DNA of 64,000 bases. Source: Candidatus Culexmicrobium cathedralense (lineage in GTDB: Archaea > Thermoproteota > Methanomethylicia > Culexarchaeales > Culexmicrobiaceae). The stretch covers positions 1 to 64,000 of the forward strand of contig JANZKC010000001.1 in NCBI GenBank assembly GCA_025061115.1, given 5' to 3'. Made by a program: the position numbers and the translations under genes. The notes under the pieces were generated by a model. The model did no database searches, was not told the origin of the DNA, and saw nothing but the letters and a program-made list of their open reading frames with translations. This document shows positions 10,007-50,118 of the stretch, one piece after another (within the stretch, counting starts at the first letter, position 1; each line of letters starts with the position of its first letter).

Positions 10007-11843
10007 ACTCCTCCCTCACAAACCTCGCACGACTACGCTCAGCCTCACTCCTAATATCCCTAAACCTCCTAGATGAAAAATACGCCTTATACTTACTCGC
10101 AACATTAACAAGATCAAGGTCAGCAATACCCCTAAGCATAACCCTAGCCTGCTTAGCCCAAACCTTAACAAGCTTATCAGCAAGAAACAGCAGGTGATTA
10201 TGACCCATCTCCTCAATAACATTAGGATTATCACACTGACTAAGAATATAGAGTACAAGGTCTCCAATGAAGCTACGCGTATTCACTTCAAGGAAAGGCT
10301 TAACCACTGACACGCCGCTCTTCTCCAAACAATTAAAATCAACAATCAACTTCGAGTCAAATTCGGGGCAGAAGGGCCGGTCATATAGGAAGACTGCACT
10401 CCTAATCGAAGGATCAGACTTAAGGCTTCTCAGCTGGAAGTAACCCCTAACAAAAAGCTGCTCACAAAAAACAGCCTTCCTAGCAGCACGAGCAACCACA
10501 CCCTCGTCATCACAACCTTCATCCCTAACCATAGTGGCAAAGCAAGCATCATACTCAACCGAACGCCAAGGAGTAGGAATCCTATCAAAATTAGCAGCAC
10601 TAACCATAGAAAGCAGAGCACGATCACTCCTAAGCGCAGGAGGCAACTCACTAGAAGAACGCGAAGAATCAGTCAACTTCAACCATACTGGTAAGACTGC
10701 ACGAATAACGTCGGTAGCACTAGTATCCTTAACAATACCAACAATTAACTTACCATTATTAACAGCGTAATCAACGATTCTATGCAAAAGAAACACATTC
10801 AAAGCATTAATATCAAGAGTAGTAATCCACCTACCATCCTCACCTTCAAGCATTAATGGGTGATCAGCGCCGCCGCCCAAAATCCTATCAACAAACTTTT
10901 CAGTCACAAACCAAACGCGCTTCCAATAATCCTCAACGCCGTCGCGAACCATCAAATACTTATCGCCAACACTTGAATCGAGCAGCTGACCATCATAACG
11001 CTCATCCAACCGCCGAACCCGACGAACAAAACGCTTAGCATCATCAACAGAAACACCCAACAAACCAGGAATCTCACTCTTCCGAACAGCCCTACCCTCA
11101 CGCTTAAAATCAATAAGCAACTTAATCAATGCATAAGCGCCGTAAGCACCTCTAGGCGGAACATACACGCGGCCAGCACCCAGAAAACAAGCCAAACGCA
11201 AATCAAGCAATGAAACTTCCCCATAAGGCGTGGAAAAACCAGCCAACACAGAAGAGCCACGCCTAAGCAGCAACCTCAAATCACGACTAGCAGGACCATA
11301 AGTACCAGAAAGCAACCTATCCAACAAAACAACCCTAACATCATCACTCAACAATGCCTTATAAGCAAGCCACAACTCAGCCAAAGTCATCAAAGCATAA
11401 GGAACACTCTCAATAGACCGCTTAACATCAAAATCAGAAACAGCACCCAACGAAGAAGGATCAACATTAGGCAAATCCTCCAACCACAAAGGAACACTAG
11501 CACTAACCTTCAAAGCATCCTCACGAACAGCACCAAAAACATCAAAAACAACCCGGCCACCATCAACCCTCACCCAACAAGAATACCCAGCCGCACACAC
11601 ATACAACAAAAGCAGCTCAAGCCTCTCCTCAACAGCATAAGAACCATCAACACCAACAACCTTAAACCCACCATCACCAAAAAACCCAGCCAAATTCAAA
11701 TTACATTCGCCAACGTCAAGCGACTTAAAGAAACCCAAAATAAAATCCAACTTAGAAACATGCCTCACCCTACCCTCAAAAACATCAAGCACACGCCGAG
11801 TAGCACGCCTCAAACCACGAGCATCAACAGACGAAGGAAACAA
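9999..11843 (-). CDS. nurA: NurA-domain nuclease (long form)
   Basis: VVGVDGS, VLLDRLL, VGIVKD and terminal GHNHLLFLADK (GYP..L..AD-like) motifs; coupled to the HerA gene. Confidence 0.75.
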   Translation of the reverse strand: MFPSSVDARGLRRATRRVLDVFEGRVRHVSKLDFILGFFKSLDVGECNLNLAGFFGDGGFKVVGVDGSYAVEERLELLLLYVCAAGYSCWVRVDGGRVVFDVFGAVREDALKVSASVPLWLEDLPNVDPSSLGAVSDFDVKRSIESVPYALMTLAELWLAYKALLSDDVRVVLLDRLLSGTYGPASRDLRLLLRRGSSVLAGFSTPYGEVSLLDLRLACFLGAGRVYVPPRGAYGAYALIKLLIDFKREGRAVRKSEIPGLLGVSVDDAKRFVRRVRRLDERYDGQLLDSSVGDKYLMVRDGVEDYWKRVWFVTEKFVDRILGGGADHPLMLEGEDGRWITTLDINALNVFLLHRIVDYAVNNGKLIVGIVKDTSATDVIRAVLPVWLKLTDSSRSSSELPPALRSDRALLSMVSAANFDRIPTPWRSVEYDACFATMVRDEGCDDEGVVARAARKAVFCEQLFVRGYFQLRSLKSDPSIRSAVFLYDRPFCPEFDSKLIVDFNCLEKSGVSVVKPFLEVNTRSFIGDLVLYILSQCDNPNVIEEMGHNHLLFLADKLVKVWAKQARVMLRGIADLDLVNVASKYKAYFSSRRFRDIRSEAERSRARFVREEYE

Positions 11844-12905: not shown

Positions 12906-13577
12906 CTGACAACCGTTAATAATTTAGACAGGATTAATAATGAGCTAGAACACTTAAGACACAAGATACATGAGCTAGAGAAATCTTTAGCTAAATATGG
13001 ATTCAATGCGAGCAGGGGGATAGAAAGTTACAAAATTAACGAGCTTAAGAAAATAATACGAAATTCTGGAGCTCAAAATGAAATAAAAAAACTTTTAAAA
13101 GAAATAATTAGTCTACAAGAGACATTATATCAAAAACTTTATGAAAATGCCAACTCAAAAATGCTTGATATTGATACAGACTCGCCAGAAAGGAGACTTG
13201 TAAGAATAAAAGAGTGGCTGGAGAAAAAGGCCGCACATAAACCCATTAGAAGTCGAAAAAAATTCATCGATACTATAAAATCAGTATTACAAGTAATAAA
13301 ATTAAGAGATTCTAATAACGACGAAGTTTTAACAAACATAATTATGGGAATACTCACAAAATCCTATAAAAGAGATTATGATAGATATAGAGTACTTAAG
13401 TTCATTATCGAATCGATGCAAAGATTTTGCGCAACTAACCATCTTGAAAGTCTGCAAATGAATATAGAAATGCTGCCTATCAATGAATTAGTACGTAAGG
13501 TTGTAAAAGACCTTAGAAAGGTAGATGTGAATAAATTGGAAACATATATTCTAACAATGTATGAGGGAAGATTATGA
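12906..13577 (+). CDS. Hypothetical helical/coiled-coil protein (about 223 aa, probable CTG start)
   Basis: Frame of ORF 13161 stays open back to CTG at 12906, 9 nt after GGAGG; stop overlaps the methyltransferase ATG (ATGA). Confidence 0.6.
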   Translation: MTTVNNLDRINNELEHLRHKIHELEKSLAKYGFNASRGIESYKINELKKIIRNSGAQNEIKKLLKEIISLQETLYQKLYENANSKMLDIDTDSPERRLVRIKEWLEKKAAHKPIRSRKKFIDTIKSVLQVIKLRDSNNDEVLTNIIMGILTKSYKRDYDRYRVLKFIIESMQRFCATNHLESLQMNIEMLPINELVRKVVKDLRKVDVNKLETYILTMYEGRL

Positions 13578-14659
13578 AAAGCACAAACACCATGATTGAT
13601 TTATTTAGTGGAGCGGGAGGACTAACTCTAGGTTTTCGATGGGCTGGATTCAAACCTGTCTTGGCTCTTGATGTTGACTGGGACGCTATTGTAACTTATA
13701 AAGCAAACAATCCTGGTGTTTCTTGGATTTGCAAAGACATTAGAAAAGTATCGACTAAAGAGATTATCGAAGTTTCAGGTGTGGAAAAAGGCGGGATTGA
13801 TGTCATAGTTGCAGGGATACCATGTGAAGGTTATTCACTTCTCAACAGAAGATATGATCCATCAGACCCTAGAAATTATCTATTCATCGAATTTATGAGA
13901 ATTGTTAGAAGTTTAAAGCCCAAGGCAGTTGTTATTGAGAATGTACCTGGTCTTTTCAGACGAGCTAACAGCTTGTTTAGAAAAGCTATAGAAAGTGCAC
14001 TTGAAGATTTAGGGTATAAAGTAAAGTCGTTTGAGTTAAACGCTTTAAATTATGGAGTGCCACAAAGAAGAGTTAGGGTATTCTTCGTTGGTACTACGAA
14101 TGAACTTTACGAGCCTCCACCTCCAACACATAAATTTGAAAAACATGGGATTGAAACATATATTTATGGCAAAAATCGTGAATTAAAGTCCCCATTAACA
14201 GTCTGGGATGCAATATCAGATTTACCTCCGTTAAAACCAGGCGAGAAAAAGGAGAGATATGAGAGCGAGCCGAAAACTGAGTATCAAAAACTAATGCGTT
14301 GTGGTAGTACTAAATTATACAATCACATTGCTCCTAAACATCCGGAATGGACAATAAAGCTAATCGAACGGACTAAACCCGGAGAACCTCTATATAACAC
14401 ATTCAAACAAAGAGTAAGACTAAGATGGGATGAGCCTTCACCAACCATACCTGCAGGTGGAGTAAGGCCCCAATGGTTTTTCGCTCACCCAAGCCAAGCA
14501 AGAGGACTTACTGTAAGAGAAATGGCTAGATTACAATCATTTCCTGATAAATACATCTTTTACGGATCGATTATCAAACAAAGAATTTTAGTTGGAGACG
14601 CTGTCCCTCCATTACTTGCCAAAGTTTTAGCCGAGCAGTTGATAAAGTATATAAGGTGA
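13574..14659 (+). CDS. dcm: DNA (cytosine-5)-methyltransferase
   Basis: Motif I FSGAGG, catalytic GIPCEGYS, ENVPG, QRRVRVF, RLQSFPD, GDAVPP. Confidence 0.95.
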   Translation: MKSTNTMIDLFSGAGGLTLGFRWAGFKPVLALDVDWDAIVTYKANNPGVSWICKDIRKVSTKEIIEVSGVEKGGIDVIVAGIPCEGYSLLNRRYDPSDPRNYLFIEFMRIVRSLKPKAVVIENVPGLFRRANSLFRKAIESALEDLGYKVKSFELNALNYGVPQRRVRVFFVGTTNELYEPPPPTHKFEKHGIETYIYGKNRELKSPLTVWDAISDLPPLKPGEKKERYESEPKTEYQKLMRCGSTKLYNHIAPKHPEWTIKLIERTKPGEPLYNTFKQRVRLRWDEPSPTIPAGGVRPQWFFAHPSQARGLTVREMARLQSFPDKYIFYGSIIKQRILVGDAVPPLLAKVLAEQLIKYIR

Positions 14660-14660
14660 G

Positions 14661-15383
14661 TTGATGTACATGAGAACTAAAAATGATGATATTATCAAAT
14701 GCATTGCTGATAGACTCGTACGCTGGTTCGATGTTAACGGTAGAAGATTTCCTTGGAGATTTATTTCTGATCCTTACAAGATACTCATAACAGAACTTTT
14801 ACTTCAACGCACAAAGGCTGAGACTATAGAAAAAATATATGATAAATTTTTTAATAGATTTCCAAATATAGGCGCACTTGCAAAGGCGGATATAGCAGAA
14901 CTAAAAAAAATCTTTTCTAAACTCGGTCTTTCGTATAGAGCTCAAAGAGCAAAGAAAGTCGCCGAAGAATTGATGAGAATTTATGGTGGAAAAATTCCAT
15001 GTAATATGTATGACCTTCTCAAGTTAAAAGGTATTGGCGTTTACATAGCCTCTGCAACTCTCAATTTTGGTTTCAATAAACCAACACCTGTAGTCGATAA
15101 AAATGTCATGCGAGTGCTAAACAGGTTGCGTGGAATAACAAACGAAAAAAGTGCAAGAATATTCGTAAAAAAATTATTTAATTATGGGGATAATCAAAAG
15201 ATAGCATATGCTCTAATCGATCTGGGCTCTTTAATTTGCGTTGAAAACCCTAAGTGTACTTTGTGCCCTCTTAAGGGTATTTGCCATAAAATCCCGTTGA
15301 AAAAAGAAAAATGGCGTTTTATGAGAAAGATTATTGGAAAGGATGGGATGATCAGGCTTCGAGAACAGCCAACATCGAAATAA
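14661..15383 (+). CDS. mig: HhH-GPD DNA glycosylase, Mig/TDG-like G:T mismatch glycosylase
   Basis: LLQRT, HhH LKGIGVY (Tyr at the lyase-Lys position, so monofunctional), VVDKNV, C-x6-C-x2-C-x5-C FeS motif; directly after a C5-MTase as for Mig.MthI. Confidence 0.8.
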   Translation: MMYMRTKNDDIIKCIADRLVRWFDVNGRRFPWRFISDPYKILITELLLQRTKAETIEKIYDKFFNRFPNIGALAKADIAELKKIFSKLGLSYRAQRAKKVAEELMRIYGGKIPCNMYDLLKLKGIGVYIASATLNFGFNKPTPVVDKNVMRVLNRLRGITNEKSARIFVKKLFNYGDNQKIAYALIDLGSLICVENPKCTLCPLKGICHKIPLKKEKWRFMRKIIGKDGMIRLREQPTSK

Positions 15384-15402
15384 ATATATGATTTTTACCT
15401 TT

Positions 15403-16938
15403 TTAAAGTACTTTTAGATATTGTCTTGATACCCAATCCTTCTCCACTTCAGTTGTTGTATAGCTTATTGGAGGCGGCAAGATGGCCCTTGTAGGTAGAT
15501 ACTTAATATCAAAGTCAATGTCATTTGCATAGTATTGGTCATTAACCTTAAATACACTAGAAATGGAATATGCAATTATTATTGGTGAACTTACTTTAAC
15601 ATTTTTCGGCTGTTCACTTGTCATGAATTTGAGCTTCATGTTATATCTTTGGGGGATGCGCCTGACATTAATCTCCCTTCCTACAATAACTGGTTGTACT
15701 TCTATATCGGTTGTTTCAGGTCTGAATTGCGTTAGCACCTGAACTACCCAGGGTACGTAAAGGAGAGTCTCGGCAAGAGCTTTTTTGTCTATAACGCTCT
15801 TTTTAAACTCGAATAAGTAAATCTTAAAACGCCCTTTTGTTTCATCCCATAAACTAGCAACAAAATCTGCAGTATCACCCGTATAACCCCATGGAAGCTC
15901 GCTGGTCCAATACTCAAGTTTTGTTAGTGGAACCCCTAACATCTTATGAATCTTGTAACCTTGATTATCGATATAAAGTGAAAAATGCAGATTTAGATGA
16001 AACTCATGTTCTAATTCCCATGCGCCTCTTTTTAGCCTTACTCTTGCATAGAAAGCAGGAATATTGTTATGATCAGTAATAGGATTTCCTACCTTTCCTG
16101 GATACTTACATCCTCCTATATCACATAATGACTGTGTGTCTTCTGTCGCAAGCATATATGCGATCTTAGCTGCCTCTTCCGGAAGAAGTACTCTTATAGA
16201 TGAACCCTTCCCTGCACCCATCGCATTATCAGTCCTGCTTATCCATATAAAAGGAGACATAGACATGTCACTATAAACTCTGTTATCGCCAGCGGTTTTT
16301 GAGAATACAATTAATGGTTTTATCAGGATCCTTGCAGAAAGAACTACCCTTGAGTATGCTTTGAACCCACTATCAGTCTTAACATAAACGGATCCGTACG
16401 GATTCCCGCACAAAGGACAATTCTTTCCGTTCTGCATTTTCCCTTGACCAAAATTAAATGGTACATTACAATTCGGGCATTTGCCTAAGATTTCATAGCC
16501 AGTTATTGGGTGTTTTAGTGATGTTGTATCTCTAAAAGGCTGAGATGTCACAATCCATATTCCTCTAAAGCCCCTTCTATTTAGTATATCCCTTGGCCAT
16601 TGAGGGTCTGCTTGGAAGAAAAATATTAGATCTCCCGGTCGCACGCCATAAAGGTACGCTAGCATCGAATATCGTCTCTTGCTCCGCTGGATGTTTATTC
16701 TATACTTCCTTCTTTTCCTGTCAAATATGATTTCGTGAGGATCGGGTACTGAGGCAAAGCAAAAGTCTCTGTGGAGAGGATAGGTCAGACCATTTATCGT
16801 GAAAAGATGTGCACGAGGTGCAGGCTTGTTCTTTGGCTTAAGATACTCCCTTATGGCCTCCATTAAGGCTTCTGGCTCAGCAAATGGATTAATATTTGTC
16901 AGTCTTTTTAATAAATTTTCGAAATTAAAATCAGTCAT
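15403..16938 (-). CDS. EVE-like domain + Zn-finger insert + PD-(D/E)XK (NucS-like) endonuclease
   Basis: VRPGDLIFFF...GFRGIWIVTSQPF EVE-like pattern; CPNC...CPLC; C-terminal E...ADFV...FEFKK nuclease motif. Confidence 0.6.
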   Translation of the reverse strand: MTDFNFENLLKRLTNINPFAEPEALMEAIREYLKPKNKPAPRAHLFTINGLTYPLHRDFCFASVPDPHEIIFDRKRRKYRINIQRSKRRYSMLAYLYGVRPGDLIFFFQADPQWPRDILNRRGFRGIWIVTSQPFRDTTSLKHPITGYEILGKCPNCNVPFNFGQGKMQNGKNCPLCGNPYGSVYVKTDSGFKAYSRVVLSARILIKPLIVFSKTAGDNRVYSDMSMSPFIWISRTDNAMGAGKGSSIRVLLPEEAAKIAYMLATEDTQSLCDIGGCKYPGKVGNPITDHNNIPAFYARVRLKRGAWELEHEFHLNLHFSLYIDNQGYKIHKMLGVPLTKLEYWTSELPWGYTGDTADFVASLWDETKGRFKIYLFEFKKSVIDKKALAETLLYVPWVVQVLTQFRPETTDIEVQPVIVGREINVRRIPQRYNMKLKFMTSEQPKNVKVSSPIIIAYSISSVFKVNDQYYANDIDFDIKYLPTRAILPPPISYTTTEVEKDWVSRQYLKVL

Positions 16939-17153
16939 ACGTACAACCCCGTATATCGGTATTAATTAAAGATGATACTTGGAATAAATATTATTCCATA
17001 GAGTATTTATTATTTTGTATCCATTAAATTTAAATTTTACAAATTTATAAAGGATTTTACAACATAGCGCGAAACAACCTGACACCCTTATAAACCCTAG
17101 GCTTAATTAGTTTTAATAGAAAAACTATAAAAACTGTAGTTTTATCAGCTGTC

Positions 17154-18359
17154 TTAGAACCAATCTGTCAATTTTCTCTCAGCATAAGATCCGCTATAAA
17201 GCAATGCCTTGATTAGAGAGCCTTGTTTGTATTCCTGAAGCATTCTTTTGTTACGTATATACTCTTTAACACTACCATTGTTTAGAAGTGCTTTAGATTG
17301 GCGATTGAATTCTTCATCTACAAGCTTAGTGTTAATTGCCATGTTTGTTCTTTTGCTTTTCAAGATTCGTGATTTAACTTCTTGGTTTAACCAACATACC
17401 ATAGAAACTTTAAAATAATAATATGTGTTAGAGTCAAAGACTCTAGCCTTGTGTTCCAATAACTTGTCTTTTTCAATTACAACCTTACCTTCTATAGGCC
17501 TAACAGGCTCTCTATTAACACCTATTATATTAGCCCCGATCAGAGATGCTAACACATCCGAGGAAGGAGTATAATCCTTCTTTACATTGGACATTATTTC
17601 TCTACGAATATTTGTGGCAATTAGAACAAGCTTATCGAATAGTCCTCTTTCATCAAATTTACGTAAAAACTTACGAACACGAGCTATTTTATCTTCAGTT
17701 ACAGCACCTCCTTCAAAATCTATCCAGATGTTGTAATACTCCTTTTTCATATAATGTTCTGCAAGCTTATCTATATCAGCCATTGAAAATCTGAGAGAAA
17801 GTGGCACGAAGATCGGCTTGTTAGTACTATAATCAAGGATACCATACATAATATCAACTATATCTACAAACTCATCGATTGTGGCTATAGTCTCCTTTTT
17901 CCTTTTACCTCCAGTCTCCTCAACTATACGATGTATCTTTACATTAGGTACTAGAAGAAAGGATGTTGAGTAAGACTGATAGTACATTAGATATCCTTCT
18001 AAATAATCTTCGGTAATCCTACGATTTTCAAAATACCTGAATGGATTAAACGTAAATGTTACAGAAATATATCGCGGAAACTCTCTCGCATAATACGGAA
18101 ATCTGAAATGACTTCTTATTCTCCTATTATCATCGGTTTCTACGATTTTACAAAACCTATTTGAGTTTACGAAAAAGGATTTTTCAAGTACAATAGGGTA
18201 ACCGTCAAACAGCATTACTATGTGTTCATAACATATGTTTTTAGCATCGAGCACTCTAATTGGTCTTTCTATAAATAGCTTACCAAAATTAAACCGTTTT
18301 ATATTAAATAACGAATACCTGTCACGAATAGTCTCTTTAACGTCTATCAGTTTACCCAT
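17154..18359 (-). CDS. Divergent tRNA-guanine-transglycosylase-like TIM-barrel protein
   Basis: N-terminal GKLFIERPIR (cf. TGT G.IETP.F), WIDFEG, GANIIG, C-terminal INTKLVDEEF...NGSVKEY (cf. HN....E...IR.AI..G.L.EY); no CxCxxC Zn site. Confidence 0.45.
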   Translation of the reverse strand: MGKLIDVKETIRDRYSLFNIKRFNFGKLFIERPIRVLDAKNICYEHIVMLFDGYPIVLEKSFFVNSNRFCKIVETDDNRRIRSHFRFPYYAREFPRYISVTFTFNPFRYFENRRITEDYLEGYLMYYQSYSTSFLLVPNVKIHRIVEETGGKRKKETIATIDEFVDIVDIMYGILDYSTNKPIFVPLSLRFSMADIDKLAEHYMKKEYYNIWIDFEGGAVTEDKIARVRKFLRKFDERGLFDKLVLIATNIRREIMSNVKKDYTPSSDVLASLIGANIIGVNREPVRPIEGKVVIEKDKLLEHKARVFDSNTYYYFKVSMVCWLNQEVKSRILKSKRTNMAINTKLVDEEFNRQSKALLNNGSVKEYIRNKRMLQEYKQGSLIKALLYSGSYAERKLTDWF

Positions 18360-18364
18360 GTTTA

Positions 18365-18937
18365 CTACCTCTCGATACTAATTATTTCATTTTTGACTTT
18401 CTCCAAAATATCTCTACTCACTCTAAATTTAGAGTTCTCTATTGCCTTTAGTATATTTAACGCTTCATCCTTAGATATAATGCCGTAAATACTATAGCAT
18501 TGTTTAATAAAACCAAGTGTACCTACAATATTTTCAAAAATCTCCGGGAAGTTCCTTTGAATAAACCTTCTCGTTTCTGTTTCATCAATGATAACTATGT
18601 AGTTTCGGTTTAAAACATGGTGATAAACATATGCTGCAACTATAACCTCGTGTTCACCTTTAACTATCTCCTCTTCAGCAAATAAGGGTTTAAGAATCTC
18701 GGCGTACATACCATATTCGAAGTGTTTGAAGTAATCGTTTAAATCATTAAAGAGTGTATTAAACCTAGAATTCATCATCAATTCTTCTTTGACTTTTTCA
18801 CATAGAACGAATATGAAGCGATTATAGGTTATTGTCCGTTTAAGAATAGCGGGTATTTTTATGTCATCAAGAAAACATACAAAGAAACTAGAATTAGGAA
18901 TTACATTAACAACATCTTTATCATGTTCCCTCGACAA
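18365..18937 (-). CDS. PIN-domain protein (DUF3368-like)
   Basis: VIPNSSFF, GEHEVI, IIDETETR, GTLG, FRVS pattern. Confidence 0.65.
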   Translation of the reverse strand: MSREHDKDVVNVIPNSSFFVCFLDDIKIPAILKRTITYNRFIFVLCEKVKEELMMNSRFNTLFNDLNDYFKHFEYGMYAEILKPLFAEEEIVKGEHEVIVAAYVYHHVLNRNYIVIIDETETRRFIQRNFPEIFENIVGTLGFIKQCYSIYGIISKDEALNILKAIENSKFRVSRDILEKVKNEIISIER

Positions 18938-19463
18938 TCTCTAAGCACCTCTTCTTAGTAATCAATCCTTTCCTAAACAAGCTTAATGCAAGCTCTTTTT
19001 TCTTTTTAACAAGTTTTTCATAGTAGATAGAATGCTCTCCAAACTCTGGATAAGTTATGTATATTAAGAGTAACAACTCATCAGTCAATAATTTATCGTA
19101 GATCCTTCGTATCATTTTAAGCATTGCCAAGAACTGTTTAAAACCAGGAACTTCCTCATAGGTTTTAACTAATTCTTTATACTTCTTTTTACCTATATCA
19201 TTCAAAGAAATTCTACCATTATCTATCGCAACATAATTACTGTCATACACAAGGTTTCTTATTACATCAGAATATGGACCATAACTATGAGGAGCAAACT
19301 GCAATATTTTAGCTACATTATGGTTTGCTCTACTCAATATGAAAAGCTCTTTCTCTAAGTGAAATATAGATGGAATAGGTTTTTCCTCAACACCAAGTAG
19401 TAGCACGATGTACCTCTCAATAATTTCCATTAAATCCTCCAAATAATGATCATGACCAGCCAT
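18921..19463 (-). CDS. Panacea/SocA (DUF4065)-like winged-helix antitoxin
   Basis: LEKELF...FAPHSYGPYS...LL.YIY..YPE signature. Confidence 0.65.
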   Translation of the reverse strand: MAGHDHYLEDLMEIIERYIVLLLGVEEKPIPSIFHLEKELFILSRANHNVAKILQFAPHSYGPYSDVIRNLVYDSNYVAIDNGRISLNDIGKKKYKELVKTYEEVPGFKQFLAMLKMIRRIYDKLLTDELLLLIYITYPEFGEHSIYYEKLVKKKKELALSLFRKGLITKKRCLEIVEGT

Positions 19464-19766
19464 TATGTCCCTCCCATTACTACCGCGTTGTAAATAAACC
19501 CCCGGTATTATTTAAGCAAAGCCCTAAATGAATAATACCAATACCTACCTAAAACATTATCCATCAATATTAATAATCCTTCGCACCATCACCATTATGG
19601 CAAAACAAGGATTCACACAAACCCTCTTAGAATCTTCGTCAATATCTTTTGCCATTAACAACATTTAGCATAGTATACACGCTCGCTTACGCGCCCTATA
19701 AAATCAATCCCGCCGCTCCATGCCGCCGAAACCCCACGCCGCGCCGTAGTTCTCGATGAAACGCGA

Positions 19767-20267
19767 ATGTACTGCGCTGTTATCTCTTTGTTACCATATT
19801 CTTTATGCAGATATCATCTTTATGTAGTGGGTGGGAGCATAAGAAAGAGAAAGACCAGAAGAATAAAGTACTACCCTGTAAAGGTTGTTCAATATCTTTT
19901 GAACAACAAGCTTCTAAAAGCAATATCCCATATACTCATTAGGGAGTCAACTCCTCTTAGCTGTTTAGAGATCGAAGAGCGTCTAGAGAAGGTCTTTAGA
20001 AGAAGCTTCACAACAGACCGTATATCAGCGCAACTAAGAAAGCCAGAGCGTTGAGGAATAGCAAAACCATATAGGAAGCCCTACAATGGTCACCTACTAT
20101 GGAGTATCGACAATACCAAAAACTGTAGAACTCCTGGTAGATACCTTGAGAAAGAAGGAAGCAACTGCAGCAACTAGAACACAAAAATATAATTAAGAAG
20201 GTTGAAGACAGATATGTTGCACTCACAGAGCCTGAGGAATTCATGACCTATTTCGATGTCAATTAAA
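19767..20267 (+). pseudogene. Disrupted winged-helix protein
   Basis: wHTH-like LSCLEIEERL...DRISAQLRK, then an in-frame TGA and frameshifted continuation (LEHKNIIKKVEDRYVAL). Confidence 0.4.
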
Positions 20268-20550
20268 ACGTAGTTTAGGACCAAGGACAAGAAAGGAGCT
20301 AAAGGTTCCATCAGGAATATCATACTATGCTAGAGAGGTTCTATAAGAAGCTAAGAAACTCGTAGCTAAAACCTGTTGTGCTTAAATAACTGATAGCTTC
20401 AGTTCATCTCGCATGAACATGCAAGTATAATTGCAGCCATGCTTGCTGATTGATGTTATTCTGTTTTCTGAGGGCATTCAATTGCTTGTTAGTGGTTGTC
20501 GTGGCGGGGGAAGTATTTTTAGGGCTAGGCAATCAGCTTCAAATTTAAGT

Positions 20551-23500
20551 TTAAAGTTTTGTTAAGATGTAGTGGTGTTTAGATGGGAAACCAGTCTTTG
20601 TTTCCATAAGTTTGCCACTTTTTATGTCATCGATTATCTTCTTTATTATATATTCAATATTTATGTTACCTTCTTTTGGCTCTGAGGTTGTTATTACGTG
20701 TCCTAGTAATCCTAGTTTCTCGTAAATTCTTCTCTTAGTTTCCCATCGCCCTCTATAGATTTCTTTGTCGAGAAGACCTAGATGTTCTATGTAGAATACT
20801 TTTCCGTTCATTACTACTTTAAAATCAGGTATTATACCGTGTTCCTCGAGATCTCTCGGTTCATACTCGAATTCTATGCCTAGACCATCAAGCGTTTTTG
20901 CAATCATATATTCTATCTTACTCCTAGTGTAAATGGTTCTGCCATCTTTAAGTTTTAAGCTATAAATTCTACCTGAAAACCTTCTATAATTGAATAGAAG
21001 TGTTTGTCTTCTATCAAGCTCAGATAACATCTTTATTTGTTGTAATATAGGCACCACGTTATCCTTTAAATTCGCGTTTAGTAGTAGGTACAACTTTTTC
21101 TTAGCCCTAGTTAAAGCCGTATATACAAGTTCCTTAGTGATAAAGCTACTTATCCTAGGCAATATAAATATCACATAATCAAAATCACTACCTTGAGCTT
21201 TATGAACAGTTACTGCATAACCCGGTGAAATATAGCTATCGCCTTCTTTGTACCGGCCTTTTATCTCGTATACAATATCTTTCAACAGTTCATATATTCT
21301 ATCAATGTCATTCTGAAGATGTTTTATTAATCCATAATATTTTCGTTTTTCAAATTTATTTCTTGTTTTACTTAAATATTTTATTGCTAAACCCTTATAA
21401 TCCCATAGTCTTTTCAGAAATTCACTAGTTTCCATAAATTTGGCTTTCTCTCTGAACCAGTACCCTAGCGCACCATTTGGAATAAGCAATATTCTTCCAT
21501 AGCTTTTTAAATTAACATATCTATTTCGTTCATTGATAATTTTCACATAATTATAATCTTGAATATTTTTACTATCCAGTATTAAAATTTTATTAATATA
21601 TTCTGAACCTAGCTCTCCGTACCTTGTTGGTGTCAGTATTTGTATTTTGTCGAGCTGAGGTCCATCTGCTGAGCCAAATCCTAGTATGTTATTAAATAGT
21701 TCTAATAATCCATACTCATCTATACTAACAGTATTTGATTTATCTAGTATTTCTTTAAGTATATTTTTGACCATGCCTTTTAGATCCTCTTTATCTATAA
21801 AGCATTCAATTTTAAGCGTATCGTCAACATAATTCTTCGGGTCATCAATGGGATTATCGGTCGAAGTAAAAGCTTGTGAAAAAGCCCAAATCCCTGTTTT
21901 CACCGGAAAACGTATAGGTGTCTCCAAGGTTATAACAAGTTCGCCATGCTTTTCGTTTAAGAAATCTATTATGTCTACAAAAGGTTTTCCAAAACCAATT
22001 GGTGGGAGTTGATTACTATCACCTACAATTATTAAATGTTCTAGGTTGTGGATATTTACGATGCTAAGTAGTAATGCTAATAGAACTTCATCAACCATAG
22101 ATGCTTCATCAATAATAAGAACCCGTGGATTAATCTTCAATCCACTATTTTTGGCAATATAATTTTTGAAAACACTAAAGAATCTAATGTCGTTAAAAGT
22201 CTTGTCAATTAAGTCTACAAGCTGTATATATTCTCCTCTTAAACCCAAGAATTTTTCAAAGTGATATGAGTATAATAATCTATGTATTGTTGATACCATA
22301 TCTACGTTTCTTAGTAATCCTCGACTCTTTAAGCGTTCTTCAATAACTAGTGAAGATTTACCAGTTGGTGTTACTATTAATATCGGCTTTCTACCTATAC
22401 GAGAATATAAATCCACAAGGTTAACGATAGTTTCCGTTTTACCGGTTCCTGCACCACCCGTGATCACTAAGAGACCATGCTTTACTGCCTTGTAATAAAT
22501 ATCTTTTTGGGTGCTAAGGAAATCTTCTTTCTGATTTTTAGAGATGTTTAAACAACTCATTTTTTCGCATAGTGATTTAAAGACACTTTCTATATGATAG
22601 TTGATATTTGAACTTGATACTAAGAAGGATTTCTTCAACATTTTCTTTATGAAGTCCTCTATTGTCCGCTCTATCTCCCTTATATGTTTTAACTGAAATA
22701 TTCGTCCTTCAATTGGGTCTACTACACAATGAATTATATTTGATAACGCCTCTCTTCGATTAACCATGATGTCCTCTATATCTGCTTTTGAGATTTCAGG
22801 CATAGTACCATGGTAAAGTTTTAAAACTTGATTTTCATTTATTGCTTCAATCAGATCTTCTTCTCTAACAGCAGTAACACCATCAAATACAGCTTTATTA
22901 TATAGAGTTTCGTAAATCACGGCAATCAAGCGATCTAGTGCTTTTGGTAATGATAACCAAAGAAGCTCAGAGTAGTCTGGATCCGGTATAAGTGGTATAT
23001 CTAAAAGGTACAAATCTATGTTAAAGTCCATAAACTCGACGAACCATTCTCTTTCTTGTAATTCATATTGAGGAATATAACTGTATATCAAGCTGTAAGG
23101 ATTATCTACAATGTCTCTTACATTCATTTGTTTATTTTCAACAGCTCTAATGATATTCAGTATTTGTATATAAGTGAGATCAAGTCTACTGAGTAGTTCA
23201 AGTAACTTAAAGTAAATTTTTCCGCGACTTTTTGCTAAGTGAAGGATCTCTCTTAATAACGATATGCAGTAACTATCCATGGTACTATCAGGATGTATAT
23301 TGTTAAGAAGATTTTCTAAACCATTAAGATCTCTAGTCTTAATTATCTCTATGAGTCTTTCGCCATATTGTCCTAAAAATTTTCTAATTTTTTCTTCAAT
23401 TTCCTTATATTTTTTATAGCCTAAATTATGCAACGATTTTTCTTTACCTGGTGAAATGCTAAAAATGCCGCGATTTACTCCTAGGGCTATGAGCAATTTT

Positions 23501-24495
23501 CCTAATGAGGAATGCTCACCTCTCAGCCTCCATAGATGTTTAATAAGTTCTTTAGCTCTCTTAACATAAGTTTCGATGAGGCTTTGCTCTACGATTCCAT
23601 GTTCATTAATTCTATTCAATGAATTTAGGATTTTATATAATATGTATAATGCTTTATCCGTTGAGATATGCATTGAAACATATTTAAAGTGGGGTATGAG
23701 AGTTTGCTTGTCTACTTCAACAATTATTTCATCAATCATCCTTTCTATTTTACGCTTTACATTTTCGTCCTTGACTTCCTCAAGCTTTTTAATGTATTCT
23801 TGATATGGTATAATTATAATAGTGTCTGGATCAAGAACTATCTGAAAGGACCATTCAATTGGAGGAAAGTATCCTCCGAAATCGTTTTCCAGTTTTTTAT
23901 AATATGTTGGGTCAAACTCATATTGTTTCGGTTTTTTAACGTCTTTTACTAATGCTGCCCCAACAACTAGATACCTATGTCTGTCACCATTGACAGGGTT
24001 GCTATAATTGAGGTAGAAAAAGACCACCGATTTGCCAGGAACTATATACGATAAGTAATGATTAAGTCTATCTTCAAGGTCACGTGGGTATTTAAGTAGC
24101 CCATCTCGTGAGAAAGAAAACTTGAAACACCATGAAAGAATGGCATAAGGTTCTATGGTATCTTCTATGGGTTTAATACCTCCTTGTTTAGCTTCTTCGG
24201 TAAAATCGCAAAATGGGTGTATATGCTTTACCCTTAGCTTCTTATCTGCTAATAAATTTATCACCCAATAGCATGGTGGAACATAGTTCTCCCTCTCTAT
24301 TATTTCACTAGCATCTTTGCCTGAATACTGTTCCTCTAAATTGCCAATTTTTCTTCTCTGAATTCTAGTGGAAAGTAATGAATAGTTCCCTGAACAAAAA
24401 ATGTTTTCAGAAGGCCTTCTACAAACCTTACCAGTCCAGCAACTATCATGCCAAGCTAGACGAACCGTGAGATGAAGAACCAATAATTCACCCAC
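20551..24495 (-). CDS. RecD-like SF1B helicase with long N-terminal domain and C-terminal PD-(D/E)XK/Vsr-like nuclease
   Basis: GGAGTGKT, TIHRLL, IIDEASMV, GDSNQLPPIG, YAVTVHKAQGS, YTALTRA; C-terminal RSKIE...PDF...IEHLG. Confidence 0.85.
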   Translation of the reverse strand: MGELLVLHLTVRLAWHDSCWTGKVCRRPSENIFCSGNYSLLSTRIQRRKIGNLEEQYSGKDASEIIERENYVPPCYWVINLLADKKLRVKHIHPFCDFTEEAKQGGIKPIEDTIEPYAILSWCFKFSFSRDGLLKYPRDLEDRLNHYLSYIVPGKSVVFFYLNYSNPVNGDRHRYLVVGAALVKDVKKPKQYEFDPTYYKKLENDFGGYFPPIEWSFQIVLDPDTIIIIPYQEYIKKLEEVKDENVKRKIERMIDEIIVEVDKQTLIPHFKYVSMHISTDKALYILYKILNSLNRINEHGIVEQSLIETYVKRAKELIKHLWRLRGEHSSLGKLLIALGVNRGIFSISPGKEKSLHNLGYKKYKEIEEKIRKFLGQYGERLIEIIKTRDLNGLENLLNNIHPDSTMDSYCISLLREILHLAKSRGKIYFKLLELLSRLDLTYIQILNIIRAVENKQMNVRDIVDNPYSLIYSYIPQYELQEREWFVEFMDFNIDLYLLDIPLIPDPDYSELLWLSLPKALDRLIAVIYETLYNKAVFDGVTAVREEDLIEAINENQVLKLYHGTMPEISKADIEDIMVNRREALSNIIHCVVDPIEGRIFQLKHIREIERTIEDFIKKMLKKSFLVSSSNINYHIESVFKSLCEKMSCLNISKNQKEDFLSTQKDIYYKAVKHGLLVITGGAGTGKTETIVNLVDLYSRIGRKPILIVTPTGKSSLVIEERLKSRGLLRNVDMVSTIHRLLYSYHFEKFLGLRGEYIQLVDLIDKTFNDIRFFSVFKNYIAKNSGLKINPRVLIIDEASMVDEVLLALLLSIVNIHNLEHLIIVGDSNQLPPIGFGKPFVDIIDFLNEKHGELVITLETPIRFPVKTGIWAFSQAFTSTDNPIDDPKNYVDDTLKIECFIDKEDLKGMVKNILKEILDKSNTVSIDEYGLLELFNNILGFGSADGPQLDKIQILTPTRYGELGSEYINKILILDSKNIQDYNYVKIINERNRYVNLKSYGRILLIPNGALGYWFREKAKFMETSEFLKRLWDYKGLAIKYLSKTRNKFEKRKYYGLIKHLQNDIDRIYELLKDIVYEIKGRYKEGDSYISPGYAVTVHKAQGSDFDYVIFILPRISSFITKELVYTALTRAKKKLYLLLNANLKDNVVPILQQIKMLSELDRRQTLLFNYRRFSGRIYSLKLKDGRTIYTRSKIEYMIAKTLDGLGIEFEYEPRDLEEHGIIPDFKVVMNGKVFYIEHLGLLDKEIYRGRWETKRRIYEKLGLLGHVITTSEPKEGNINIEYIIKKIIDDIKSGKLMETKTGFPSKHHYILTKL

Positions 24496-33765: not shown

Positions 33766-33767
33766 CG

Positions 33768-34229
33768 TTAAATACTTAATTTTAAATTGAATTTCTTTTC
33801 AAATGCTTCTTTAATTAAATTAAAGTCGTGATGTGAAACTTCACCAATACCATATCCATCAATGTAATTCTCTATTTTTATAAAGTGGGTTAGTATTGGC
33901 TCTAGTGAGAAGATTATTATTGAAAATTCAATTTTCCATGGAAATAGTACTTTATTCTCTTTAATTTCAGCTGGCCAGATAGGGGTTTGATCATCATAAT
34001 GCTTACTTTTAATTAGACCAATTGCATGAATTTCACCAGTTCCAGCTATTTGAAATGTAGCGGAATCAAATGGTTTAATTTGATTATATAACCTAATGAA
34101 AGCCCTCCAATTTCTCCTCTGCTTATCACCTGCTTCCCTATCCCAAAACCCCCATAACAATCTTTTATATGCAACTTCAATATTGTCAATATTCCTCGAT
34201 GAGAATAGCCAGACTTTCACATAATTCAA
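33768..34229 (-). CDS. EVE-domain protein
   Basis: WLF...N...LWGFW...IKPFD...FQI...IHAIG...TPIWP.E...FPWKIEF; stop lies 2 nt before the helicase ATG. Confidence 0.65.
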   Translation of the reverse strand: MNYVKVWLFSSRNIDNIEVAYKRLLWGFWDREAGDKQRRNWRAFIRLYNQIKPFDSATFQIAGTGEIHAIGLIKSKHYDDQTPIWPAEIKENKVLFPWKIEFSIIIFSLEPILTHFIKIENYIDGYGIGEVSHHDFNLIKEAFEKKFNLKLSI

Positions 34230-49962: not shown

Positions 49963-50118
49963 CTACCAATCATCATTACTTCCCCTGTAAATTCTTTTTA
50001 GCATTTTCAACTTGAACTCAAGTTGTTATTCGGATTTATTTGAAGCATAGATTCCAAAGAGCATGGCACTCGTTTGATTTAAATGATTGCTGTTATGATA
50101 TTTGTTTGGTGGTTGCTT

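What the first reader, a model, noticed from the sequence alone, without database searches (positions are those of the whole stretch)
17154..19463. Panacea-like + PIN + TGT-like three-gene operon: candidate undescribed toxin-antitoxin/defence system
Seen: three same-strand genes (17-nt overlap, 5-nt gap) inside the defence island: a YGPYS-type winged helix, a DUF3368-like PIN, and a 401-aa protein with TGT-like terminal motifs but no Zn site. Known: Panacea/SocA domains neutralise diverse toxins, PIN domains are RNases, and TGT paralogues such as DpdA exchange bases in DNA. Inference: a base-exchange or glycosylase-like effector or sensor coupled to a PIN nuclease and a Panacea antitoxin. No preQ0 synthesis or other dpd genes are in the window, so this is not a standard Dpd cluster.
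Basis: inference. Interest (0 to 1): 0.72.

Follow-up and report, generated by a model that had tools for sequence, protein, structure and literature searches.

The report
Archaeal PIN module with TGT-like barrel
A compact three-gene cassette, inherited together across many archaeal lineages, joins a DarG/Panacea-like antitoxin-type protein, a PIN nuclease and an uncharacterised enzyme-like barrel shaped like tRNA-guanine transglycosylase; it looks like an undescribed toxin-antitoxin or defence module.

Summary
Three minus-strand ORFs lie at 18921-19463 (A, 180 aa), 18365-18937 (B, 190 aa) and 17154-18359 (C, 401 aa), with a 17-nt overlap and a 5-nt gap.

- **C:** its model is confident (pLDDT 92.7). 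All 50 best PDB matches shown are tRNA-guanine transglycosylases. No Pfam model matches. 0 of 98 relatives carry the TGT zinc motif, and the TGT aspartate triad is not evidently kept.
- **B:** a COG2405/DUF3368-type PIN. 24 of 32 relatives match PADLOC PDC-S70. The window copy has Asn at the first catalytic Asp.
- **A:** resembles the toxin-binding C-terminal domain of DarG. 29 of 31 relatives match the DarG profile, and the only Foldseek matches with E <= 0.001 are two chains of 7yk3. The Pfam Panacea model does not match.
- **Conservation:** the order A-B-C is intact in 31 of 36 related loci that have room upstream. Flanks vary, there is no fourth conserved gene, and the three gene trees agree.

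Best reading: a mobile tripartite toxin-antitoxin-like or defence cassette, with A the antitoxin, B the nuclease effector and C a regulatory or sensing enzyme of new chemistry. C's role is inferred. My literature searches found no description of this triad.

The parts
19491..19515 (-). AT-rich TATA-like boxes (TTAAATAA at 19515-19508, TTATTTA at 19497-19491) upstream of gene A; candidate archaeal promoter of the operon
   Evidence: Read by eye in the sequence; not tested. The sigma-70 scan does not apply to archaea.
19469..19475 (-). GGGAGGG, a Shine-Dalgarno-like purine run 6-12 nt before the ATG of gene A
   Evidence: Read by eye.
18921..19463 (-). Gene A, 180 aa: DarG-C-terminal-domain-like / Panacea-like protein with an embedded winged-helix-like core and a C-terminal SHOCT/UPF0175-like helical tail; predicted antitoxin
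   Evidence: ORF. PADLOC DarG 1.2e-5 and PDC-M19A 2.3e-7; 29 of 31 relatives match each. NCBIfam DarG 9e-4. Model pLDDT 93.9, pTM 0.88. The only Foldseek PDB matches with E <= 0.001 are 7yk3_B and 7yk3_D, E 4.9e-4 and 5.8e-4, TM 0.45. SHOCT_2 in 10 of 31. Atlas structure neighbour at TM 0.84 is a cluster with UPF0175 in 80% of members.
18365..18937 (-). Gene B, 190 aa (TTG start; the true start may lie a few codons downstream): COG2405/DUF3368-type PIN domain protein; predicted nuclease effector. The window copy has Asn15 (codon AAT, 18893-18895) where 30 of 32 relatives have Asp
   Evidence: ORF. PDC-S70 6e-6 and 24 of 32 relatives. DUF3368 in 5 of 32, PIN and PIN_12 in 1 each. Invariant E52, G94, D118, T140, S169 and near-invariant D15, K93, E95, E97. 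Codon 15.
17154..18359 (-). Gene C, 401 aa: member of a Pfam-less, mainly archaeal family with a TGT-like (beta/alpha)8 barrel, an N-terminal beta cap, a hairpin after strand 3, and a C-terminal hairpin plus helical extension; no zinc site. Conserved polar residues include E59, K181, D214, E216, N250, R253, E254, D268, R306, Y313, Y315, K371
   Evidence: ORF. No Pfam, NCBIfam or PADLOC match. Homologues. Model pLDDT 92.7, pTM 0.91. All 50 top PDB rows are TGT, ArcTGT or QTRT1, best E 4.4e-7, TM 0.52. Top BFVD match is a viral 'queuine tRNA-ribosyltransferase', E 4.9e-6. Conservation.
17120..17133 (-). Two T5 runs (TTTTTATAGTTTTT) starting 21 nt after the stop codon of C (17156-17154); candidate archaeal oligo-T terminator that closes the operon before the REase gene
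   Evidence: Read by eye; not tested.

Best explanation
A self-contained, horizontally mobile three-gene toxin-antitoxin-like or defence cassette of archaea.

**Shown**
- The three genes form one tight unit that is inherited and transferred as a block.
- A has the fold and profile of the DarT-binding C-terminal domain of DarG, plus a SHOCT/UPF0175-like tail.
- B is a COG2405/DUF3368-type PIN.
- C is a TGT-fold barrel with a conserved polar site, without the TGT zinc site or detectable TGT sequence signature.

**Inferred mechanism**
- A is made first. It binds and holds B, the nuclease effector, inactive. This follows UPF0175 antitoxins with COG2405 PINs, and the way the DarG C-terminal domain holds DarT.
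- C is the third, obligatory arm. I take it to be an enzyme or ligand-binding sensor that acts on a nucleobase-bearing substrate (nucleic acid, nucleotide or a modified protein).
- C would thereby set or release the A-B brake. This follows Cap10 in type IV CBASS and the proposal for TIM-B (P4 beta protein), both of which control their linked effectors.
- On infection or loss of the cassette, B is freed and cleaves RNA, stopping growth.

The regulatory role for C is the weakest step. My sub-confidence in it is about 0.35.
For: **Operon anatomy.** A/B overlap by 17 nt and B/C are 5 nt apart. Over 31 related loci the median A-B distance is -10 nt and B-C is -4 nt, using longest-ORF starts. There is an AT-rich promoter-like stretch before A and an oligo-T tract after C (read by eye).

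**Conservation.**
- 42 related loci were found. 36 have at least 1.1 kb upstream of C.
- 31 of those 36 hold A-B-C intact in this order.
- No fourth gene family recurs beside the triad. The next largest cluster, a DDE transposase, occurs in 5 loci.

**Co-inheritance.**
- Pairwise distances of A, B and C correlate: r 0.74-0.78, reached by 0 of 2000 permutations.
- The A, B and C trees share their supported clades, including cross-phylum pairs.

**Mobile or defence setting.**
- By my classification, 24 of 104 nearest flanking ORFs are transposases or integrases (10) or restriction-modification, toxin-antitoxin or defence-type genes (14).
- In the window the cassette sits between an R-M system and PDC-S68.

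**A as antitoxin.**
- DarG profile in 29 of 31 relatives.
- 7yk3 DarG chains are the only PDB fold matches with E <= 0.001.
- Atlas neighbours carry UPF0175 (80% of one cluster, TM 0.84) and SocA_Panacea (20-21%).
- UPF0175 is reported to occur exclusively with COG2405 PINs (PMC5499597, passages).
- It was predicted as a PIN antitoxin, mostly in archaea and cyanobacteria (PMC2701414, passages).

**B as effector.** PIN signature residues. PDC-S70 in 24 of 32 relatives.

**C as TGT-fold protein.**

**Precedents for TGT-family barrels that control effectors.**
- Cap10 lacks the zinc site and binds CdnD (bioRxiv 10.1101/2025.04.06.647259, passages).
- TIM-B is proposed as a negative regulator of linked toxins (bioRxiv 10.64898/2026.10.19.760177, section 33).
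Against: - No toxicity, neutralisation or phage-defence data exist for any member; every role is inferred.
- The window's own B has Asn at the first PIN catalytic Asp, as does its nearest relative L001. The effector may therefore be impaired here, which fits better with C being the active arm. COG2405 PINs are listed with a variable acidic site, 2-5 residues (PMC5499597).
- A does not match the Pfam Panacea or UPF0175 models at useful E-values: 0 of 31 and 1 of 31 at E <= 0.1.
- C shows no profile similarity to TGT or to P4 beta / PF14350, so the analogy with Cap10 and TIM-B rests on fold alone. The TM-scores are moderate: 0.52 in PDB and 0.33-0.45 in BFVD.
- Many flanking genes are housekeeping (ribosomal proteins, tRNA synthetases), so island context is not universal.
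- C occurs without A and B in 3 of 36 loci. Two of those copies are broken or fragmentary.
Confidence: 0.5

Rival explanations
1. C, not B, is the toxin or effector. It would be a TGT-fold enzyme that excises, exchanges or otherwise alters bases in DNA or RNA. A would neutralise it by occupying its nucleic-acid site, as the DarG C-terminal domain does for the DNA-modifying toxin DarT. B would be an accessory or degenerate nuclease that processes the damaged target or the operon transcript.
For: - A's only clear structural relative is the DarT-binding domain of DarG. The title of Deep et al. 2023, seen only in a reference list, describes ssDNA mimicry by that domain.
- C carries the most elaborate conserved polar site of the three proteins.
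- The window's B and its nearest relative have Asn at the first catalytic Asp.
- TGT relatives act on nucleic acids (DpdA; PMC10164549, passages).
Against: - Gene order and the A/B overlap pair A with B. The usual antitoxin-first arrangement puts the toxin directly downstream (PMC8832971, passages).
- A's tail and its Atlas neighbours point to UPF0175-type PIN antitoxins.
- 30 of 32 B proteins keep the full PIN signature.
- C lacks the TGT aspartates by my secondary-structure mapping.
Confidence: 0.22
2. A housekeeping or stress-response RNA-metabolism operon rather than a conflict system. C would modify or repair tRNA or rRNA, B would process RNA, and A would be a winged-helix transcription regulator of the operon.
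For: - TGT-fold enzymes are classically tRNA-modifying.
- Weaker fold matches of A are MarR/PadR-type winged-helix regulators, at E about 0.5-1.
- Many flanks in related loci are housekeeping genes.
Against: - Distribution is patchy: 42 loci found by the pattern scan of one genome for each of 185,579 species.
- Flanks vary and there is no conserved position.
- Cross-phylum clades recur in all three trees.
- Decayed copies exist (L029, L038, L039).
- Transposases and R-M genes are often adjacent.
- A matches DarG and B matches PDC-S70 defence profiles.
Confidence: 0.1
3. A reduced Dpd-like DNA-modification or restriction system. C would insert a 7-deazaguanine or other base into host DNA as a self mark, and B would restrict unmarked DNA.
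For: TGT/DpdA-like fold of C. The neighbourhood is rich in R-M genes.
Against: - No QueC, QueD, QueE or TGT homologue in the window by tblastn.
- No ParB-like DpdB partner or other gene is conserved beside C.
- No zinc site (0 of 98).
- Base-recognition and nucleophile aspartates are not evidently kept.
- No Pfam TGT match in C or in 53 distant relatives.
- PIN domains of this class are toxin-antitoxin-type nucleases (PMC5499597).
Confidence: 0.04

Closest known systems
UPF0175 (COG2886) - COG2405/DUF3368 PIN toxin-antitoxin-like pairs
   Same: A small upstream helical or HTH protein followed by a COG2405-type PIN, common in archaea. B matches DUF3368 in 5 of 32 relatives. A's nearest Atlas structure cluster carries UPF0175 in 80% of members.
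   Different: A is larger and carries a DarG-C-terminal-domain-like body. The Pfam UPF0175 model matches only 1 of 31 A proteins, at E 0.099. A third, obligatory 400-aa TGT-fold gene is present. The three-component COG2405 systems in PMC5499597 use HTH plus a DUF955 protease instead.
DarTG (C-terminal domain of DarG)
   Same: A shares profile and fold with the DarT-binding domain: PADLOC DarG in 29 of 31 relatives; 7yk3_B E 4.9e-4, 19% identity; shared lqK...F...GPYS motif.
   Different: A has no macrodomain (180 aa in all). No DarT (DUF4433) gene is present. The partners are a PIN and a TGT-fold barrel.
PanAT systems (Panacea / DUF4065 / SocA antitoxins)
   Same: An antitoxin-first operon, a GP-containing motif, and modular pairing of one antitoxin fold with different toxins. 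Neighbouring Atlas clusters carry PF13274 in 20-21% of members.
   Different: The Pfam model that defines PanA matches 0 of 31 A proteins at E <= 0.1, so a survey at Pfam gathering cut-offs, as described in PMC8832971, would not pick this family up. In that survey third genes were sporadic; here the third gene is kept in 31 of 36 loci.
tRNA-guanine transglycosylase / DpdA family
   Same: Overall barrel with an N-terminal beta cap, a hairpin after strand 3 and a C-terminal hairpin plus helical extension. All 50 top PDB rows are TGTs, and viral 'queuine tRNA-ribosyltransferases' lead in BFVD.
   Different: About 10% identity. No PF01702 match. hhalign probability 0.2-0.3%. No zinc motif in 0 of 98. 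The aspartate triad is not evidently kept. No preQ0 pathway genes are nearby.
Cap10 of type IV CBASS
   Same: A TGT-family barrel in a defence operon that has lost the zinc site and works with a protein partner to control an effector (bioRxiv 10.1101/2025.04.06.647259, passages).
   Different: Cap10 keeps the TGT base-reading and nucleophile residues (D73, S74, D122, K154, D248). It is partnered by a QueC-like Cap9 and a CD-NTase. None of these is present here.
TIM-B systems (phage P4 Gop-beta; Pfam PF14350 Beta_protein)
   Same: A TGT-related barrel encoded directly downstream of a toxin or effector, proposed to restrain it. PanA and TIM-B are described as alternative partners of one effector (bioRxiv 10.64898/2026.10.19.760177, sections 32-33).
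   Different: C has no PF14350 match. hhalign of the C family against 50 beta-family proteins gives probability 0.3%. PIN is not among the listed TIM-B effectors in the text I read. The figure and supplementary data were not visible.
PADLOC candidates PDC-S70 and PDC-M19
   Same: B matches PDC-S70 profiles (24 of 32). PMC12988326 describes PDC-S70 as an unvalidated, mostly archaeal PIN candidate. A matches PDC-M19A (29 of 31).
   Different: PDC-S70 is treated as a single-gene candidate. Here the PIN is flanked by two conserved partners, and C matches no PADLOC profile. I found no paper naming PDC-M19.

Membership tests
TGT / DpdA (deazaguanine transglycosylase) family | (beta/alpha)8 barrel whose closest structural relatives are TGTs | tested here: met
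   Model pLDDT 92.7. All 50 PDB rows shown are TGT, ArcTGT or QTRT1, best E 4.4e-7, TM 0.52. The BFVD top hit is a viral queuine tRNA-ribosyltransferase, E 4.9e-6.
TGT / DpdA (deazaguanine transglycosylase) family | Sequence-profile membership (Pfam PF01702 or profile-profile match) | tested here: not met
   No Pfam match for C at E <= 1 nor for 53 distant relatives at E <= 0.1. None is precomputed for the 120 listed homologues. hhalign against E. coli TGT gives 0.3% and 0.2%. PDB profile searches found no TGT.
TGT / DpdA (deazaguanine transglycosylase) family | Three invariant aspartates: general acid/base, base recognition, nucleophile (DpdA D95, D130, D256; PMC10164549) | tested here: inconclusive
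   By order of secondary-structure elements and local motifs, the equivalents of E. coli D89, D143 and D264 are N139, S188 and G280/N282. A distant subfamily has D139 and D277. No superposition was possible, so the mapping is an inference.
TGT / DpdA (deazaguanine transglycosylase) family | Structural zinc site CxCx2C...H | tested here: not met
   0 of 98 family members contain CxCxxC. No column has Cys in 30% or more of members.
Dpd restriction-modification system | DpdB (ParB-like ATPase), DpdC and other dpd genes, and a preQ0 supply beside the TGT-like gene | tested here: not met
   No conserved neighbour other than A and B in 42 loci. No QueC, QueD, QueE or TGT hit in the window by tblastn at E <= 0.001.
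TIM-B / Beta_protein (PF14350) | Match to PF14350 or to a profile of P4 beta relatives | tested here: not met
   No PF14350 match. hhalign of A1 against P4 beta gives 0.3%, and against 50 beta-family proteins 0.3%.
Panacea (PanA, DUF4065, PF13274) | Match to the Pfam SocA_Panacea model, as used to define PanA in PMC8832971 | tested here: not met
   0 of 31 A proteins at E <= 0.1. Only leads exist: Atlas clusters with PF13274 in 20-21% of members, at feature scores 0.88-0.89 and TM 0.63.
DarG antitoxin | C-terminal DarT-binding domain | tested here: met
   PADLOC DarG in 29 of 31 relatives, best 7.9e-9, covering profile positions 168-277 of 329 for the window protein. Foldseek 7yk3_B and 7yk3_D are the only matches with E <= 0.001.
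DarG antitoxin | N-terminal macrodomain (ADP-ribosyl glycohydrolase) and a DarT partner | tested here: not met
   A is 180 aa and aligns only with the C-terminal part of the DarG profiles. No DarT-like gene is in the cassette.
PIN domain nucleases, COG2405/DUF3368 class | PIN core with conserved acidic residues plus the DUF3368 C-terminal region | tested here: met
   At family level: near-invariant D15 and invariant E52 and D118, with K93, E95 and E97 near-invariant; DUF3368 in 5 of 32; PDC-S70 in 24 of 32. No structure was predicted for B. In the window copy the first Asp is Asn.
Type II toxin-antitoxin system | Toxin arrests growth; antitoxin binds and neutralises it | not testable with these tools
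   Needs expression and rescue assays.

The most novel reading that the evidence does not exclude
The cassette is a new class of archaeal immune or addiction module. In it, a branch of the TGT superfamily that has shed the zinc site and re-sited its carboxylates (D214 and D268, with an Asp swap between positions 139 and 214 in a sister clade) performs a chemistry not yet seen in this fold. Examples would be excising or transferring a base on RNA, or reading a nucleobase-protein conjugate. That chemistry would gate a PIN nuclease held by a DarG-like antitoxin.
Probability: 0.25. Interest if true: 0.8.

Novelty: new variant of a known kind. Interest (0 to 1): 0.62.

Why it matters
- Archaeal immunity is poorly charted, and PIN candidates such as PDC-S70 are currently counted as single genes (PMC12988326). 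This cassette shows that one branch of such PINs always travels with two partners.
- One partner extends the TGT superfamily into a Pfam-less, mainly archaeal family: 146 representatives at 50% identity with E <= 0.001.
- TGT-fold proteins have recently emerged as controllers of bacterial defence effectors (Cap10, TIM-B). An archaeal counterpart with a different active site would widen that theme and offer a new enzyme to characterise.
- It also links the DarG C-terminal, Panacea-like antitoxin fold to PIN toxins.

Tried and rejected
**Co-fold**
The verdict was 'no answer'.
- The complex scored 0.86, 0.85 and 0.88. Two controls with A replaced scored 0.00. The control that kept A and B but replaced C scored 0.85.
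- The job therefore gives no support and no evidence against any binding, and I do not use it.

**Sequence-level links for C (none found)**
- phmmer and profile searches of PDB sequences. The only hit was Cfl 7a9j at E 0.018, which I took as chance.
- hhalign against E. coli TGT, P4 beta and the beta family.
- PHROGs gave only E > 0.04.
- The Atlas feature search gave one cluster with PF01702 in 14% of members, at score 0.83: a lead only.

**Other searches for C**
- Fused longer forms, 703-2005 aa: none found, which is weak evidence.
- tblastn of C in plasmid and phage collections: no match.

**Loci where C stands alone**
- The upstream ORFs of L027 and L039 are unrelated to A and B.

**RNA and small features**
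- No Rfam family and no tRNA in the window.
- The GC-rich patch at about 19700-19790 is not unusually structured: z +2.06 and +0.34.
- The sigma-70 and hairpin-terminator scan does not suit an archaeon, and I did not use it.

**Chance hit**
- A weak tblastn hit of P4 beta at 49828-50016 (E 0.006) runs past a stop codon. hhalign gives 2%, so I took it as chance.

**Not checked**
- The genomic context of the distant C subfamilies was not examined.
- The bioRxiv supplements of the TIM-B preprint were closed, and Dataset S1 of PMC8832971 was not opened. Either could list a related triad.


Full report
**1. What is there**

One search lists three minus-strand ORFs at the stated coordinates:
- A: 18921-19463, 180 aa.
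- B: 18365-18937, 190 aa, TTG start.
- C: 17154-18359, 401 aa.

A and B overlap by 17 nt, and B and C are 5 nt apart. Three features read by eye suggest that the three genes form their own transcription unit:
- AT-rich TATA-like boxes lie upstream of A, at 19515-19508 and 19497-19491.
- A GGGAGGG run lies 6-12 nt before the ATG of A.
- Two T5 runs (17133-17120) follow the stop codon of C, before the next gene.

That unit would be separate from the 1314-aa PDC-S68 helicase gene upstream (20551-24495) and from the type II REase gene downstream (15403-16938). No Rfam family or tRNA lies in the window.

**2. Gene C**

Sequence searches:
- C matches nothing in Pfam, NCBIfam, PADLOC or PDB sequences.
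- It is nevertheless a real, conserved protein. There are 129 relatives with E <= 0.001 among 2825 candidates in the word-indexed search. The 120 listed have no precomputed Pfam domain, and those that are named are all 'hypothetical protein' from archaeal bins.
- The exhaustive search found 146 representatives with E <= 0.001.
- 53 of the most distant representatives also have no relevant Pfam match.

Structure:
- An AlphaFold2 model built on 98 relatives is confident: pLDDT 92.7, pTM 0.91. It shows an N-terminal beta cap, alternating beta/alpha units, a hairpin after the third strand, and a hairpin plus helical extension at the C-terminus.
- Foldseek against the PDB gives 396 matches with E <= 0.001. 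All 50 rows shown are bacterial TGT, archaeosine TGT or eukaryotic QTRT1. The best is 1q2r_A: E 4.4e-7, TM 0.52, about 10% identity.
- Against viral models, the best match is a 'putative queuine tRNA-ribosyltransferase' of a Sulfolobales virus (E 4.9e-6). Several phage proteins of that name follow. TM-scores there are low, 0.3-0.45.

**3. C is not an ordinary TGT**

- Profile-profile comparison with E. coli TGT gives probability 0.2-0.3%.
- None of 98 relatives has the CxCxxC zinc motif, and no Cys column is conserved.
- I lined up the order of secondary-structure elements with the E. coli TGT sequence. On that mapping the general acid/base Asp89 corresponds to Asn139, Asp143 to Ser188, and the nucleophile Asp264 to Gly280 or Asn282. 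This is an inference; I could not superpose coordinates.
- The family does have a dense set of conserved polar residues: E59, K181, D214, E216, N250, R253, E254, D268, R306, Y313, Y315 and K371.
- In a wider alignment of 89 proteins, down to 18% identity, P138 and G280 are invariant. E59, K181, W212, D268, Y313, Y315, N343, E350 and K371 hold in at least 90%.
- One distant clade has Asp139/Asn214 where the window's clade has Asn139/Asp214. I read this reciprocal swap as a sign that these two positions share one functional site.
- All 33 C proteins from the fetched loci belong to the window's clade.
- I conclude that C is probably an enzyme or a specific ligand binder, of unknown chemistry.

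**4. Relation of C to other TGT-fold defence proteins**

- A preprint of October 2026 unites the phage P4 beta protein (Pfam PF14350) with the TGT fold under the name TIM-B. It proposes that TIM-B restrains linked toxins (10.64898/2026.10.19.760177, sections 32-33 read).
- C does not match PF14350.
- A profile of 50 beta-family proteins aligns with the C family at probability 0.3%.
- Cap10 of type IV CBASS is a TGT-family barrel that lacks the zinc site and binds a protein partner, but it keeps the TGT catalytic residues (10.1101/2025.04.06.647259, passages).
- C is therefore a separate branch.

**5. Gene B**

- The window protein matches DUF3368 weakly (E 0.057) and PADLOC PDC-S70 at 6e-6.
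- Among 32 relatives, 24 match PDC-S70, 5 match DUF3368 (best 8.1e-5), and one each matches PIN and PIN_12.
- The alignment shows a PIN-like pattern: Asp15 in an xDSSF strand, then invariant Glu52 and Asp118 and near-invariant Glu95 and Glu97.
- The window copy and its nearest relative L001 have Asn at position 15, codon AAT. The other 30 have Asp.
- COG2405/DUF3368 PINs are classed as potential toxins with a variable acidic site (PMC5499597, passages).

**6. Gene A**

- The Pfam Panacea model matches none of 31 relatives at E <= 0.1. Ten match SHOCT_2 at the C-terminus.
- The DarG profiles match instead: NCBIfam 9e-4 and PADLOC 1.2e-5 for the window protein, over the C-terminal part of DarG, and 29 of 31 relatives in PADLOC. 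The same 29 of 31 match PDC-M19A.
- A confident model (pLDDT 93.9) has only two PDB matches with E <= 0.001. Both are the DarG chains of the M. tuberculosis DarTG complex 7yk3: E 4.9e-4 and 5.8e-4, TM 0.45, 19% identity. MarR/PadR-type winged-helix proteins follow at E about 0.5 and above.
- In the ESM Atlas, the nearest structure cluster (TM 0.84) is archaeal and is named 'putative DUF4065 domain-containing protein'. It carries UPF0175 in 80% of its members. Other neighbours carry SocA_Panacea in 20-21% of members. These are leads only.
- UPF0175 is reported to occur exclusively beside COG2405 PINs (PMC5499597). It was predicted to be their antitoxin (PMC2701414).
- A thus combines two antitoxin-type features. 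'Panacea-like' is a fair loose description, but membership is not shown.

**7. Conservation of the triad**

- A scan of one genome per species found 42 loci encoding a C relative. 36 of them have at least 1.1 kb upstream of C.
- In 31 of those 36, A, B and C are present, intact and in the same order and orientation.
- The five exceptions:
  - L022: B and C with an AbiEii-domain gene where A would be.
  - L029: A, a remnant of B and a truncated C.
  - L027, L038 and L039: C alone. L038 is a fragment and L039 is broken.
- In two of the six loci cut by contig ends, B is still visible at the edge.
- Median spacing is -10 nt for A-B and -4 nt for B-C, using longest-ORF starts.
- No other gene family recurs next to the triad.
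- Of 104 nearest flanking ORFs, I class 10 as transposase, integrase or TnpB, and 14 as restriction-modification, toxin-antitoxin or other defence-type. The rest are housekeeping or unknown.
- Hosts by record title span Thermoproteota-like, Methanobacteriota, Thermoplasmatota, Nitrososphaerota, Bathyarchaeia, Asgard and several DPANN lineages. A few bins are labelled bacterial.

**8. Co-inheritance**

- Pairwise distances of A, B and C across 27 loci plus the window correlate: r 0.74-0.78, reached by 0 of 2000 permutations. I dropped four loci with broken ORF calls: L006, L031, L041 and L042. Shared host phylogeny alone would also give some correlation.
- More telling, the maximum-likelihood trees of C, B and A share their supported clades. 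These include pairs that cross phylum labels:
  - L016 (Woesearchaeota) with L025 (Thermococci).
  - L020 (labelled Paceibacterota) with L028 (Nanoarchaeia).
  - L037 (Nitrososphaerota) inside a Bathyarchaeota clade.
  - The window with L001 (labelled Deltaproteobacteria).
- This fits transfer of the cassette as a block, with the caveat that bins can hold foreign contigs.

**9. Setting in the window**

PADLOC and Pfam place the cassette among:
- a HerA-type ATPase with an unknown 614-aa partner (8198-11843);
- a C5 methyltransferase, an HhH-GPD nicking-type protein and a type II REase (13574-16938);
- PDC-S68 (20551-24495);
- an MkoA-like helicase (31717-33765).

No paralogue of A, B or C, and no TGT, QueA, QueC, QueD or QueE homologue, is detectable elsewhere in the window by tblastn.

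**10. Mechanism**

Most likely this is a tripartite toxin-antitoxin-like or abortive-defence cassette.
- A, translated first and overlapping B, binds and silences the PIN nuclease B.
- C, always co-inherited, supplies an enzymatic or ligand-sensing function that sets or releases this brake. This follows Cap10 and the proposal for TIM-B.

What is shown: the anatomy, the fold and profile assignments, and the co-inheritance. What is inferred: every functional role.

The main rival makes C the toxin and A its DarG-like neutraliser. It gains weight from the Asn15 in the window's PIN and from A's kinship with a domain that blocks a nucleic-acid-modifying toxin.

**11. Novelty**

- I ran seven literature searches: Panacea with DarG; DpdA with PIN and archaea; the PDC names; DUF3368 with UPF0175; TGT-like with PIN and defence; the DarG C-terminal domain; and CBASS with deazaguanine.
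- Neither they nor the passages I read turned up a description of this triad.
- The three-component COG2405 systems in PMC5499597 are HTH plus DUF955 protease.
- The TIM-B effector list that I read does not include PIN.
- Figures, bioRxiv supplements and Dataset S1 of PMC8832971 were not seen, so a prior mention there cannot be excluded.
- I rate it a new variant of a known kind: a PIN toxin-antitoxin-type module with a new, obligatory TGT-fold third component and an unusual DarG-like antitoxin.

Noticed in passing
window 13574-16938: A compact restriction-modification unit: a C5 cytosine methyltransferase (13574-14659, +), an HhH-GPD protein that PADLOC calls a type II nicking endonuclease (14661-15383, +; possibly a mismatch-repair partner for the C5 methylase) and a convergent 511-aa type II REase (15403-16938, -).
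   Followed up: partly
window 20551-24495: A 1314-aa protein that matches PADLOC candidate PDC-S68 end to end (5e-250). It has a RecD/SF1 helicase core (AAA_19, AAA_30, UvrD_C_2) and long N- and C-terminal regions without a Pfam match.
   Followed up: partly
window 8198-11843: A HerA-type ATPase (8198-10006; PADLOC HerA 5.9e-35) overlaps a 614-aa ORF (9999-11843) that has no Pfam or PADLOC match. This may be a HerA-partnered defence pair with an unknown effector.
   Followed up: no
window 31717-34229: An SF1 helicase that matches PADLOC MkoA (4.6e-73), preceded on the same strand by a 153-aa ORF with no family match.
   Followed up: no
window 19464-20550: A 1.09-kb stretch between PDC-S68 and gene A with no convincing gene. 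It holds a locally GC-rich patch (about 19700-19790) in a 34% GC region, and two small overlapping ORFs (19767-20054 on +, 20008-20244 on -) with no family match. It has no Rfam match and no unusual folding energy.
   Followed up: partly
window 18893-18895 (codon 15 of gene B); also L001: The first PIN catalytic Asp is Asn in the window and in its nearest relative, which is 56% identical. The other 30 of 32 relatives keep Asp. This is a stable lineage-specific change, not a one-off error.
   Followed up: partly
alignment A5 of C relatives (window residues 139, 214, 277): A reciprocal Asp/Asn swap separates clades of the C superfamily. The window clade has N139/D214, mostly with N277. A distant clade of 420-460 aa proteins has D139/N214/D277, with His250, Lys253 and Gln188. 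The genomic context of that clade is unknown.
   Followed up: partly
L006 and L007; L020 and L028; L001: The B proteins of a Huberarchaeum bin (L006) and an Altarchaeum bin (L007) are identical. A bin labelled Paceibacterota (L020) carries a cassette nearly identical to that of a Nanoarchaeia bin (L028). The window's closest cassette (L001) sits in a bin labelled Deltaproteobacteria. These reflect either recent transfer between partners or mis-binned contigs.
   Followed up: no
L022:1352-2704: In one Thermoplasmata locus, a 450-aa protein with an AbiEii nucleotidyltransferase domain sits directly upstream of B and C, where A would be. A TnpB-like gene lies downstream.
   Followed up: no
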